A DNA stretch of 64,000 nt. It comes from Escherichia coli (GTDB lineage: Bacteria > Pseudomonadota > Gammaproteobacteria > Enterobacterales > Enterobacteriaceae). The stretch lies in assembly GCF_030013595.1 (NCBI RefSeq), contig NZ_CP122771.1; one strand, written 5' to 3'. Position 1 is the first letter of the stretch. Each line of letters starts with the position of its first letter. Shown here one piece after another: positions 1-2,875 of the stretch. The notes below the pieces were generated by a model. It worked only from the letters and a program-made list of their open reading frames with translations. It was not told the DNA's origin and ran no database searches. A program made the position numbers and the translations under genes.

Positions 1-88
1 GGAAGCCCGGCGGAAAATATTTCCCGGTGTGATGTTATGTGTTGAATGTCAGGCGTATCAGGAAAGACAGAGAAAACATTATGCATAA
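1..88 (+). CDS. traR: TraR, 3' end only (frame starts at nt 2; C-terminus ...CVECQAYQERQRKHYA)
   Basis: Translation of nt 2-88 gives the C4 zinc-finger tail characteristic of F TraR; lies directly upstream of traC as in F. Confidence 0.6.
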   Translation, partial: EARRKIFPGVMLCVECQAYQERQRKHYA

Positions 89-247
89 GTCAGTCGCAGA
101 ACATAGTGATTTAATTCCGGATGAACATGAGTGGATATTCAGAAAACAGAAATCTTTGTATATGCGCCGGGAAATGGCGCGTTAATTACAGGTATTCCCT
201 TCATGGCTACCGCATTTCTCGCTTTATTTTTCAACTAAGGAATTCAT

Positions 248-2875
248 GTGAATAACCCACTTGAGGCCGTCACTCAGGCGGTTAACTCCCTCGTCACAGC
301 ACTGAAACTGCCTGACGAATCCGCAAAGGCCAATGAAGTTCTGGGCGAAATGAGCTTCCCGCAGTTCAGCCGTCTGCTGCCGTACCGTGATTATAACCAG
401 GAATCCGGTCTGTTCATGAATGACACCACGATGGGCTTTATGCTGGAAGCCATTCCCATCAATGGGGCGAATGAGTCTATTGTGGAGGCGCTCGACCACA
501 TGCTGCGCACCAAACTGCCGCGCGGAGTGCCGTTCTGCATCCATCTGATGTCCAGTCAGCTTGTTGGTGACAGAATTGAATACGGGCTGCGTGAGTTCTC
601 CTGGTCCGGTGAACAGGCTGAACGGTTTAACGCCATTACCCGTGCCTATTATATGAACGCGGCAGCGACACAGTTTCCGCTGCCGGAGGGGATGAATCTG
701 CCCCTGACCCTGCGCCATTACCGGGTATTCTTCTCGTACTGTTCTCCCTCGAAGAAAAAAAGCCGGGCTGACATTCTGGAAATGGAAAACCTGGTGAAAA
801 TCATCCGGGCGTCGTTACAGGGGGCCAGTATCACCACACAGGCGGTGGATGCACAGGCCTTTATCGATATTGTCGGGGAGATGATTAACCATAACCCGGA
901 CTCCCTGTATCCGAAAAGACGTCAGCTGGACCCGTATTCTGATCTGAATTATCAGTGTGTGGAGGACAGTTTTGACCTGAAAGTCCGGGCGGATTACCTG
1001 ACGCTGGGCCTGCGTGAGAACGGCAGGAACAGCACGGCCCGCATCCTGAATTTCCATCTGGCCCGTAACCCGGAAATCGCCTTTCTGTGGAACATGGCCG
1101 ACAACTACAGCAACCTGCTGAACCCGGAACTGTCCATCTCCTGTCCGTTCATCCTGACGCTGACTCTGGTGGTGGAAGACCAGGTGAAAACTCACAGCGA
1201 AGCCAACCTGAAGTACATGGACCTGGAGAAAAAGTCGAAGACCTCCTATGCCAAATGGTTTCCGTCCGTGGAGAAAGAGGCGAAGGAGTGGGGGGAACTG
1301 CGTCAGCGGCTGGGCTCCGGTCAGTCCTCTGTCGTGTCCTACTTCCTCAACATCACAGCATTCTGCAAGGACAATAATGAAACGGCGCTGGAAGTGGAGC
1401 AGGACATCCTGAACAGCTTCCGTAAAAACGGTTTTGAGCTGATTTCACCGCGCTTTAACCACATGCGCAATTTCCTGACCTGTCTGCCCTTTATGGCCGG
1501 GAAAGGGTTGTTTAAACAGCTGAAAGAGGCCGGAGTGGTACAGCGCGCAGAGAGCTTTAATGTGGCCAACCTGATGCCGTTAGTGGCGGATAACCCCCTG
1601 ACACCGGCAGGTCTGCTGGCACCCACCTACCGTAACCAGCTGGCGTTTATCGATATTTTCTTCCGGGGGATGAATAACACCAACTACAACATGGCGGTCT
1701 GTGGCACCTCCGGGGCCGGTAAAACCGGGCTGATACAGCCACTTATCCGCAGCGTGCTGGACTCCGGGGGCTTTGCCGTGGTGTTCGACATGGGGGATGG
1801 CTACAAGTCCCTGTGTGAGAACATGGGCGGGGTGTATCTGGACGGTGAAACCCTGCGTTTTAACCCGTTTGCGAACATCACCGATATTGACCAGTCAGCG
1901 GAGCGTGTCCGCGACCAGTTGTCGGTGATGGCCAGCCCCAACGGTAACCTGGATGAAGTGCATGAAGGTCTGCTGCTGCAGGCGGTCAGGGCCTCCTGGC
2001 TGGCTAAAAAGAATAAGGCGCGCATCGATGATGTGGTGGATTTCCTGAAAAACGCCCGTGATAACGACCAGTATGTAGAGTCACCGACTATCCGCAGCCG
2101 TCTGGACGAAATGATTGTGCTGCTTGACCAGTACACTGCTAACGGCACTTATGGCCAGTATTTCAACTCCGATGAGCCGTCCCTGCGGGATGATGCGAAA
2201 ATGGTGGTGCTGGAGCTGGGCGGACTGGAAGACCGTCCGTCCCTGCTGGTTGCGGTGATGTTCAGCCTTATCATTTACATTGAGAACCGGATGTACCGCA
2301 CGCCGCGTAACCTCAAGAAACTGAACGTTATTGATGAAGGCTGGCGTCTGCTGGACTTCAAAAATCACAAGGTCGGTGAATTTATTGAGAAAGGCTACCG
2401 TACGGCCCGCCGTCATACCGGTGCCTATATCACCATCACACAGAACATCGTCGACTTTGACTCTGATAAGGCCTCCAGTGCTGCCCGCGCGGCATGGGGT
2501 AACTCCTCCTACAAAATTATCCTCAAACAGAGTGCGAAGGAGTTCGCGAAATACAACCAGCTGTATCCGGACCAGTTCCTGCCACTGCAGCGCGACATGA
2601 TTGGTAAGTTTGGTGCAGCCAAAGACCAGTGGTTCAGTTCCTTCCTGCTGCAGGTGGAAAACCATTCCTCCTGGCACCGTCTGTTTGTGGACCCGTTAAG
2701 CCGCGCCATGTACAGCTCTGACGGCCCGGATTTTGAGTTTGTGCAGCAGAAGCGTAAAGAGGGGCTGAGTATTCATGAGGCAGTGTGGCAGCTGGCGTGG
2801 AAGAAGTCAGGGCCGGAGATGGCTTCGCTGGAAGCCTGGCTGGAAGAACATGAGAAATACAGGAGTGTGGCATGA
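248..2875 (+). CDS. traC: TraC, VirB4-like conjugative ATPase (GTG start)
   Basis: 875-aa ORF with N-terminus MNNPLEAVTQAVNSLV and Walker A GTSGAGKT; matches recalled F TraC in sequence and size. Confidence 0.95.
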   Translation: MNNPLEAVTQAVNSLVTALKLPDESAKANEVLGEMSFPQFSRLLPYRDYNQESGLFMNDTTMGFMLEAIPINGANESIVEALDHMLRTKLPRGVPFCIHLMSSQLVGDRIEYGLREFSWSGEQAERFNAITRAYYMNAAATQFPLPEGMNLPLTLRHYRVFFSYCSPSKKKSRADILEMENLVKIIRASLQGASITTQAVDAQAFIDIVGEMINHNPDSLYPKRRQLDPYSDLNYQCVEDSFDLKVRADYLTLGLRENGRNSTARILNFHLARNPEIAFLWNMADNYSNLLNPELSISCPFILTLTLVVEDQVKTHSEANLKYMDLEKKSKTSYAKWFPSVEKEAKEWGELRQRLGSGQSSVVSYFLNITAFCKDNNETALEVEQDILNSFRKNGFELISPRFNHMRNFLTCLPFMAGKGLFKQLKEAGVVQRAESFNVANLMPLVADNPLTPAGLLAPTYRNQLAFIDIFFRGMNNTNYNMAVCGTSGAGKTGLIQPLIRSVLDSGGFAVVFDMGDGYKSLCENMGGVYLDGETLRFNPFANITDIDQSAERVRDQLSVMASPNGNLDEVHEGLLLQAVRASWLAKKNKARIDDVVDFLKNARDNDQYVESPTIRSRLDEMIVLLDQYTANGTYGQYFNSDEPSLRDDAKMVVLELGGLEDRPSLLVAVMFSLIIYIENRMYRTPRNLKKLNVIDEGWRLLDFKNHKVGEFIEKGYRTARRHTGAYITITQNIVDFDSDKASSAARAAWGNSSYKIILKQSAKEFAKYNQLYPDQFLPLQRDMIGKFGAAKDQWFSSFLLQVENHSSWHRLFVDPLSRAMYSSDGPDFEFVQQKRKEGLSIHEAVWQLAWKKSGPEMASLEAWLEEHEKYRSVA

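What the first reader, a model, noticed from the sequence alone, without database searches (positions are those of the whole stretch)
81..185. Possible 34-codon ORF overlapping the traR stop
An ATG at 81 opens a short frame (MHKSVAEHSDLIPDEHEWIFRKQKSLYMRREMAR) in the traR-traC spacer. It could be a small tra-operon peptide or noise.
Basis: seen in the sequence. Interest (0 to 1): 0.15.

Follow-up and report, generated by a model that had tools for sequence, protein, structure and literature searches.

The report
Decayed yfhA gene remnant after traR
The 34-codon frame is real, but it is the frameshifted, truncated leftover of a 155-158-codon accessory gene (yfhA of R100) that other F-like plasmids keep intact after traR, and it evolves as neutral DNA, so it is ordinary.

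Summary
ATG 81-83 opens a 34-codon frame that ends at TAA 183-185, and it overlaps the traR stop (TAA 86-88) as ATGCATAA. traC starts at GTG 248.

The frame is neither noise nor a conserved small gene. In R100-, pSLT- and related F-like plasmids the same ATGCATAA start opens a 155-158-aa membrane protein of unknown function. It is called yfhA in R100 and is also annotated yfiA or YafA.

Window 81 to about 216-226 is homologous to the first ~46 codons of that gene. About 1.1 kb is then missing, up to the traC ribosome-binding site.

A rare lineage (NZ_CP078136.1) has the same deletion but keeps the frame, giving a 52-codon mini-ORF. F itself and about 2,200 PLSDB plasmids have also lost one G at 164/165, and that loss creates the 34-codon frame.

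Across 15 F-type sequences the changes are 13 nonsynonymous to 3 synonymous, which is the neutral expectation. Intact yfhA shows dN/dS 0.3-0.8, and 0.26-0.31 in its C-terminal domain.

PGAP annotates nothing here. Other gene callers list the frame as 'hypothetical protein'.

Verdict: a pseudogene relic. It may still be translated through coupling to traR, but the peptide is not under selection. Low interest.

The parts
2..88 (+). 3' end of traR (DksA/TraR-type C4 zinc-finger protein), cut by the window's left edge. The stop is TAA 86-88.
   Evidence: Direct reading. Annotated traR in records that are 99-100% identical.
81..185 (+). The 34-codon ORF of the finding. The ATG overlaps the traR stop (ATGCATAA). 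Codons 1-28 are the yfhA N-terminus. Codons 29-34 (RREMAR) are out-of-frame read-through that follows a 1-nt deletion.
81..226 (+). Remnant of the yfhA gene: about 46 codons covering the polar N-terminus and part of the first transmembrane helix. It is homologous to L001:1581-1717, L002 and L003. The right end of the homology is uncertain and lies between about 216 and 226.
   Evidence: DNA alignments. tblastn E=5e-6 against 7.3 Gb. BLASTP 23/39 identical, E=4e-12.
164..165 (+). Site of the 1-nt deletion. One G of an ancestral ATG-GCG is lost (L001 has ATGGCA, L013 has ATGACG), which moves the relic from frame 3 to frame 2.
   Evidence: Alignments. tblastn places the restored 52-aa query as 2 pieces over 155 nt in about 2,240 plasmids, against 1 piece over 156 nt in NZ_CP078136.1.
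164..238 (+). Frame-2 continuation of the relic (APGNGALITGIPFMATAFLALFFN*), which is the leftover of YfhA transmembrane helix 1. The ORF listing reports it as ORF 131..238. Its stop is TAA 236-238.
237..250 (+). traC ribosome-binding site (AAGGA 237-241) and GTG start (248-250). The right edge of the ~1.1-kb deletion lies just upstream.
   Evidence: The right-hand alignment to L001 and L002 begins at window ~227. Similarity upstream of the Shine-Dalgarno sequence is not significant.
248..2875 (+). traC (875 aa, type IV secretion ATPase). It is the downstream neighbour, not part of the relic.

Best explanation
The 34-codon frame is the decayed 5' end of yfhA. This accessory gene of the F-like tra operon encodes a 155-158-aa protein with a polar N-terminus, two transmembrane helices and a conserved charged C-terminal domain. 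Its function is unknown.

In plasmids that keep the gene, its ATG overlaps the traR stop (ATGCATAA). That arrangement suggests it is translated by termination-reinitiation coupling to traR. The coupling is inferred, not shown.

Two events are shown by comparison in the lineage leading to F:
1. A ~1.1-kb deletion removed codons from about 47 onwards, plus the small ORFs that follow, up to the traC Shine-Dalgarno sequence. This left a 52-codon mini-ORF.
2. Loss of one G at 164/165 shifted the frame, so the reading frame from the ATG now stops at TAA 183-185 after 34 codons.

The ATG survives because its bases are the last traR codons (TAT GCA TAA). Ribosomes finishing traR may still reinitiate there and make a 34-aa soluble peptide (inferred). 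The peptide sequence is not under selection and most likely has no function.
For: 1. The start is the same. In L001, L002, L003 and L005 an annotated CDS of 156-159 codons begins 8 nt before the end of traR, exactly as in the window.
2. Homology is clear. The window matches these plasmids over 1-197 at 81-84% DNA identity. In the alignments, window 89-216 matches yfhA codons 3-46 with a single 1-nt gap. The frame-restored 52-aa peptide gives 23/39 identities with YfhA, E=4e-12, and tblastn E=5e-6. M1, S4, E7, I12, H16 and R21 are invariant even in IncI YafA homologues.
3. An intermediate exists. NZ_CP078136.1 (L013) has the same junction before traC but an unbroken 52-codon frame. That exact protein occurs on 35 further contigs.
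4. Counts. About 2,240 PLSDB plasmids, including F itself (NC_002483, L014), carry the frameshifted form, and only 1-2 carry the 52-codon form. At least 1,270 plasmids hold a yfhA of 60% identity or more.
5. Evolution is neutral. 15 F-type haplotypes show 13 nonsynonymous and 3 synonymous distinct changes in 89-185, at a site ratio of ~4.2:1. For L007, pN 0.108 against pS 0.106. Fifteen cluster members read show scattered amino-acid replacements. Intact yfhA has dN/dS 0.32-0.76 overall and 0.26-0.31 in the C-terminal domain.
6. Annotation. PGAP annotates nothing in the spacer in 40 of 40 sampled RefSeq genomes.
7. Literature. YfhA is listed after traR in R100-type backbones and is said to be absent from F (PMC2762410; PMC5052281).
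Against: - The frame is open in all 15 F-type haplotypes and none has a premature stop. With so few substitutions this is expected by chance.
- The relic keeps the most conserved N-terminal motif of the family and its coupled start, so a residual activity of the N-terminal peptide cannot be excluded from sequence alone.
- The dN/dS estimate rests on only 16 distinct substitutions.
- No expression data were available.
- The right-hand deletion junction could not be resolved to the nucleotide.
Confidence: 0.85

Rival explanations
1. It is a genuine small protein gene of the F tra operon. A 34-aa soluble peptide is made by coupling to traR, keeps the conserved YfhA N-terminal motif and has a function of its own.
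For: The coupled start ATGCATAA is retained. The frame is open in every F-type sequence examined. The family-invariant residues M1, S4, E7, I12, H16 and R21 are present. Several gene callers call it, and the cluster has 135 members found on more than 1,000 contigs.
Against: Substitutions are neutral, 13 nonsynonymous to 3 synonymous, and amino-acid variants are scattered along the whole peptide. The C-terminal 6 residues come from a frameshift. The ATG is fixed by traR's own codons, so its retention says nothing about this frame. The sister form with 52 codons differs at 12 of 52 residues, with dN/dS 0.8-1.1. PGAP never annotates it.
Confidence: 0.06
2. The act of translating the relic matters, not the peptide. 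Ribosomes reinitiating at ATG 81 would cover part of the 159-nt traR-traC spacer. This could protect the long tra mRNA from Rho-dependent polarity or decay, or tune traC initiation.
For: The start overlaps the traR stop. In the 52-codon form the stop TAA lies inside the traC Shine-Dalgarno sequence, an arrangement typical of coupling. The spacer has no promoter-like or terminator-like site of its own.
Against: In the F-type form the frame ends 62 nt before the traC GTG, so direct coupling to traC is lost, yet this is the form found in ~2,200 plasmids. traC has its own good Shine-Dalgarno sequence (AAGGA, 6-nt spacing). There are no data on polarity here. The spacer RNA has no unusual structure (z = -0.06).
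Confidence: 0.06
3. A programmed -1 ribosomal frameshift rejoins the two frames, so that F still makes the 52-aa membrane mini-protein.
For: Frame 2 is open from 89 to 238 and encodes the homologous hydrophobic continuation.
Against: There is no X XXY YYZ slippery heptamer in the ORF's frame anywhere in 89-185. The only nearby hairpin (164-180) is not conserved in L013. The hydrophobic part also evolves neutrally.
Confidence: 0.01
4. It is a pure chance ORF with no evolutionary history.
For: ORFs of this length are common: 360 in the window against ~328 in shuffles.
Against: There is specific homology in sequence, start position and frame to yfhA in three divergent plasmid lineages.
Confidence: 0.02

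Closest known systems
yfhA of plasmid R100 (annotated elsewhere as yfiA, YafA or 'hypothetical protein'): a 155-158-aa ORF immediately after traR in R100-, R1- and pSLT-type F-like plasmids
   Same: It has the same start codon overlapping the traR stop (ATGCATAA), the same position in the operon, and a homologous first ~46 codons. Against L001 the first 39 residues are 59% identical. The N-terminal motif MHKS.AE..D.I.DEH..I.R is shared.
   Different: The window copy lacks everything from about codon 47 onwards: most of the two transmembrane helices and the whole conserved C-terminal domain. It also carries a 1-nt frameshift after codon 28. The literature states that F has no YfhA-like ORF (PMC2762410), whereas this analysis shows that F keeps the 5' stump.
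52-codon mini-ORF of NZ_CP078136.1 (L013:401-559)
   Same: It has the same deletion junction before traC and the same start. DNA identity across the spacer is about 91%.
   Different: Its frame is unbroken, so the ORF runs into the traC Shine-Dalgarno sequence and encodes an N-terminus plus one hydrophobic segment. It is very rare: 1-2 PLSDB records and 37 contigs in the protein collection.
yafA of IncI-type plasmids (downstream of the FinO-family gene yafB)
   Same: It is a distant full-length homologue of yfhA, 36-39% identical, with the same N-terminal and C-terminal motifs.
   Different: Its genomic context differs and it is not coupled to traR. It is relevant only as an outgroup, showing that the long form is ancestral.

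Membership tests
yfhA / YafA family (uncharacterised plasmid membrane protein) | The start codon overlaps the traR stop and the gene sits directly after traR in the tra operon | tested here: met
   ATGCATAA at 81-88. The arrangement is identical in L001, L002, L003 and L005.
yfhA / YafA family (uncharacterised plasmid membrane protein) | N-terminal polar motif (M.KS.AE..D.I...H..I.R) | tested here: met
   M1, S4, E7, I12, H16 and R21 are invariant in the 8-sequence alignment. BLASTP E=4e-12.
yfhA / YafA family (uncharacterised plasmid membrane protein) | Two transmembrane helices (residues ~28-75) | tested here: not met
   The 34-aa product has no hydrophobic segment (maximum Kyte-Doolittle hydropathy over 15 residues is -0.56). 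Only part of helix 1 survives, and it is out of frame.
yfhA / YafA family (uncharacterised plasmid membrane protein) | Conserved charged C-terminal domain (LSRQ.LL...ELL.RLLSGK.LTGRDE.DI...) | tested here: not met
   It is absent. About 1.1 kb is deleted relative to L001.
yfhA / YafA family (uncharacterised plasmid membrane protein) | Purifying selection on the coding frame | tested here: not met
   The relic shows 13 nonsynonymous to 3 synonymous changes, about neutral. Intact genes have dN/dS 0.26-0.76. The window copy is therefore a pseudogene remnant of the family, not a functional member.
Functional small proteins (50 aa or fewer) of conjugative operons | Sequence conservation beyond neutral expectation across diverged relatives | tested here: not met
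   In diverged relatives the homologous frame is 155-158 codons, not 34.
Functional small proteins (50 aa or fewer) of conjugative operons | Evidence of translation (Ribo-seq or mass spectrometry) | not testable with these tools
   No expression data were available, and literature searches found none.
Known structured RNA or regulatory element in the spacer | Match to an Rfam family, or unusually stable or conserved structure | tested here: not met
   Rfam gave only a chance hit at E=0.32, below the gathering score. Fold z-score is -0.06. No promoter-like or terminator-like sites were found.

The most novel reading that the evidence does not exclude
The stump is still translated through coupling to traR. 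Either the 34-aa peptide keeps an activity through the conserved N-terminal motif of the YfhA/YafA family, or its translation tunes expression of the downstream traC ATPase. On this reading the 'intergenic' traR-traC spacer of the classical F plasmid would hide a functional micro-ORF.
Probability: 0.06. Interest if true: 0.35.

Novelty: new member of a known kind. Interest (0 to 1): 0.1.

Why it matters
It matters little for biology and mainly helps annotation. The traR-traC 'spacer' of F and of about 2,200 related plasmids is not primary intergenic DNA. It is the scar of a deleted accessory block (yfhA plus the small ORFs that follow it in R100-type plasmids).

This explains why some gene callers keep emitting two 'hypothetical proteins' here, of 34/47/48 aa and of 35 aa. 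These calls should be treated as pseudogene fragments.

It also shows that yfhA is dispensable for F-type conjugation, since F itself lacks a working copy. And it gives a dated order of events (deletion first, then frameshift) that can serve as a lineage marker for F-like tra regions.

Tried and rejected
- **Rfam scan of window 1-500.** It found only a sub-threshold snoRNA hit at E=0.32.
- **RNA folding of 60-270.** It was no more stable than shuffles, z = -0.06. The local GC hairpin at 164-180 is not conserved in L013.
- **Promoter and terminator scan of 1-600.** None was found.
- **Function of the ancestral YfhA.** Searches of Pfam, NCBIfam, PADLOC, PHROGs and PDB sequences gave nothing above the curated cut-offs, only weak chance hits. 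The ancestral function stays unknown.
- **Programmed -1 frameshift.** There is no slippery heptamer in frame.
- **Nucleotide-level mapping of the right-hand deletion junction** against the L001 and L003 sequences upstream of traC. Similarity upstream of the Shine-Dalgarno sequence is no better than shuffles.
- **Klebsiella F-like plasmid (L021) as an outgroup.** It has no yfhA homologue, only a homologue of the following 72-aa ORF.
- **Literature.** Searches for 'yfiA traR traC' and 'between traR and traC' found nothing. The 'Five shades of F' paper does not treat this spacer.
- **Not run.** I judged the 5.8-billion-protein homologue search, the structure prediction and the fold search unnecessary for the verdict.

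Full report
**Observation**

The window begins inside traR. Frame 2 reads ...EARRKIFPGVMLCVECQAYQERQRKHYA and stops at TAA 86-88. An ATG at 81-83 in frame 3 overlaps that stop as ATGCATAA. It opens 34 sense codons, MHKSVAEHSDLIPDEHEWIFRKQKSLYMRREMAR, ending at TAA 183-185.

traC (875 aa) starts at GTG 248 behind an AAGGA Shine-Dalgarno sequence at 237-241. Records 99-100% identical to window 1-330 annotate the flanking genes as traR and traC.

Length alone is unremarkable. The window contains 360 ATG-ORFs of 34 codons or more over six frames, against about 328 after shuffling.

**What it is**

A sensitive BLASTN search of window 1-330 against 72,556 plasmids sorted the hits into two main groups.
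- About 2,240 records match the whole query at 93-100% identity.
- A large second group matches only 1-197 at 81-84%, or 1-128 to 1-149 at 74-89%. In these records a 'hypothetical protein' or 'yfiA' is annotated right after traR.

I fetched four representatives of the second group: pMyNCGM369 (L001), pA17EC0016-1 (L002), the pSLT-like pUGA14_2 (L003) and pSTEC17_183-a (L005). In every one a CDS of 156-159 codons starts 8 nt before the end of traR. That is the same ATGCATAA as in the window.

The encoded proteins begin MHKSENEKIDFILDEHERISRKQGSLCMALGKGFLV... and close variants. They have two hydrophobic helices at about residues 28-75 and a conserved charged C-terminal domain.

The literature calls this gene yfhA in R100. 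It states that YfhA is found in R100 and that no similar ORF exists in F (PMC2762410; see also PMC5052281).

**Anatomy of the relic**

DNA alignments show that window 81 to about 216 is colinear with the first ~46 codons of yfhA, apart from a single 1-nt gap at 164/165. The window has TATATG-CGCCGGG where L001 has TGTATGGCACTGGG.

After about position 226 the window joins sequence that in L001 and L002 lies directly upstream of traC (TTTTTAAACGCACTAAGGAATAC...). About 1.1 kb is therefore missing relative to L001. The missing stretch covers the rest of yfhA plus a 72-aa and a 124-aa ORF.

The exact right-hand junction cannot be placed. Similarity upstream of the Shine-Dalgarno sequence is no better than shuffles.

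After the 1-nt gap the homologous reading continues in frame 2 as APGNGALITGIPFMATAFLALFFN*. This is the tail of the ORF that the ORF listing reports at 131..238. It corresponds to YfhA ALGKGFLVIAILCGVATFCVSGLYLK, the first transmembrane helix.

Restoring the lost base gives a 52-aa peptide. It aligns to YfhA with 23 of 39 identities, E=4e-12 pairwise and E=5e-6 by tblastn against 7.3 Gb.

**An intermediate form and the order of events**

I ran tblastn with the restored 52-aa peptide.
- About 2,240 plasmids match as two pieces spanning 155 nt, which is the frameshifted form.
- One record, NZ_CP078136.1, matches as one piece spanning 156 nt.

The locus from that record (L013) has the same junction before traC but an unbroken 52-codon ORF: MHKSDAEYIDLIPGKHKRIFRKQKSLYMTPGNGLLMTGIPFMVTAFLVLFFN*. 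Its TAA lies inside the traC Shine-Dalgarno sequence.

This is not a sequencing slip. L013 differs from the F type at about 9% of spacer positions. The exact protein is on 35 other contigs, and two further variants exist. A megablast with the L013 spacer found only two records at 99% identity or above, and about 2,200 at 80-95% that are one base shorter.

So the deletion came first, and the 1-nt loss came later in the lineage that includes F itself. The F plasmid (NC_002483, L014) carries the identical 34-codon frame.

Three observations point to the long form as ancestral.
- The long form occurs in three divergent F-like lineages that are 47-70% identical to one another.
- It also occurs as yafA in IncI-type plasmids, at 36-39% identity.
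- The short forms are a single near-identical clade.

**Selection**

I compared 15 F-type haplotypes over 89-185 in the frame of the ORF. They carry 16 distinct substitutions: 13 nonsynonymous and 3 synonymous. The ratio of nonsynonymous to synonymous sites is about 4.2:1, so this is the neutral expectation.

The most divergent sequence (L007) has pN 0.108 and pS 0.106. The spacer also diverges faster than the flanking coding DNA. Between L007 and the window it has about 15 differences in 159 nt, against 1 in the first 83 nt of traC.

The protein collection holds the exact 34-aa sequence in a 90%-identity cluster of 135 members. The 15 members I read show replacements scattered along the peptide: S4L, V5A, S9I, D14G, W18L, I19T/M, K22N, Q23P, S25Y/F, R29C and A33V.

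The 52-codon and frame-restored forms compared with each other give dN/dS of 0.8-1.1. Intact yfhA genes give 0.32-0.76 overall and 0.26-0.31 in the C-terminal domain.

The ATG itself is held in place by the last traR codons (TAT GCA TAA), so its retention says nothing about the small frame.

**Other readings checked**

- No Rfam family matches the spacer.
- The spacer RNA folds no better than shuffles, z = -0.06.
- There are no promoter-like or terminator-like sites.
- There is no -1 slippery heptamer in frame, which argues against a programmed frameshift that would rejoin the two pieces.
- YfhA has no significant match in Pfam, NCBIfam, PADLOC, PHROGs or PDB sequences. What the ancestral gene did is unknown.

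**Annotation status**

RefSeq/PGAP annotates neither a CDS nor a pseudogene in the spacer in 40 of 40 sampled complete E. coli genomes. The segment is present in 1,825 of 5,426 genomes.

Other pipelines do call the frame as 'hypothetical protein', from the ATG or from upstream TTG/GTG starts. One example is CP024975.1. The frame-2 piece is likewise called as a 35-aa hypothetical protein.

**Mechanism and verdict**

- Shown: the frame is the frameshifted, truncated 5' stump of yfhA, and it evolves neutrally.
- Inferred: in intact genes the overlapping stop and start serves translational coupling to traR, so in F some ribosomes probably still reinitiate at ATG 81 and make a short, soluble, non-functional peptide.

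The main alternatives are a functional micro-protein, or a cis role for its translation in traC expression or mRNA protection. Neither is excluded, but neither has positive support. In the F type the frame ends 62 nt before the traC start, so direct coupling to traC is lost.

The clean experiment is T82C, which is silent in traR and kills the ATG, combined with Ribo-seq or mass spectrometry and mating assays.

Interest is low. The result is a tidy explanation of an ordinary pseudogene scar, of some use for annotation and as a lineage marker for F-like tra regions.

Noticed in passing
L022:3001-3495 and L023:3001-3510 (IncF and IncI-gamma/K1 plasmids): Full-length distant homologues of yfhA (36-39% identical, annotated yafA) sit directly downstream of a FinO/ProQ-family gene (yafB), next to yagA and outside any tra operon. 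The N-terminal and C-terminal motifs are shared with the traR-coupled yfhA. The family has no Pfam, NCBIfam, PADLOC, PHROG or PDB assignment.
   Followed up: partly
L001:2137-2355 and L021:712-930: The 72-aa ORF that follows yfhA in R100-type plasmids (MHTFIFLVLIKNINGGGSWNITPMPNTDVC...) has a clear homologue upstream of traC in Klebsiella F-like plasmids, which lack yfhA. It is also part of the block deleted in F.
   Followed up: no
window 131..238 (+): This 35-aa hydrophobic ORF (GTG start) is the out-of-frame continuation of the same yfhA relic. Its TAA (236-238) lies in the traC Shine-Dalgarno sequence. It is also deposited in databases as 'hypothetical protein'.
   Followed up: yes
window 33, 37, 40 (traR): The window's traR differs at three bases from the traR of F and of all 14 other F-type sequences compared. 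One change gives Thr->Met two residues before a zinc-finger cysteine (GVMLCVEC against GVTLCVEC).
   Followed up: no
L006:1589-3145 (NZ_CP148484.1) and PMC5052281: yfhA is a repeated target of IS insertion. ISVsa5 follows traR in L006. IS903D is reported with the target duplication GCATAAATC, which is exactly the yfhA start, in p2246-CTXM. ISEc8 truncates the gene in pEntH10407. All three cases are consistent with the gene being dispensable.
   Followed up: partly
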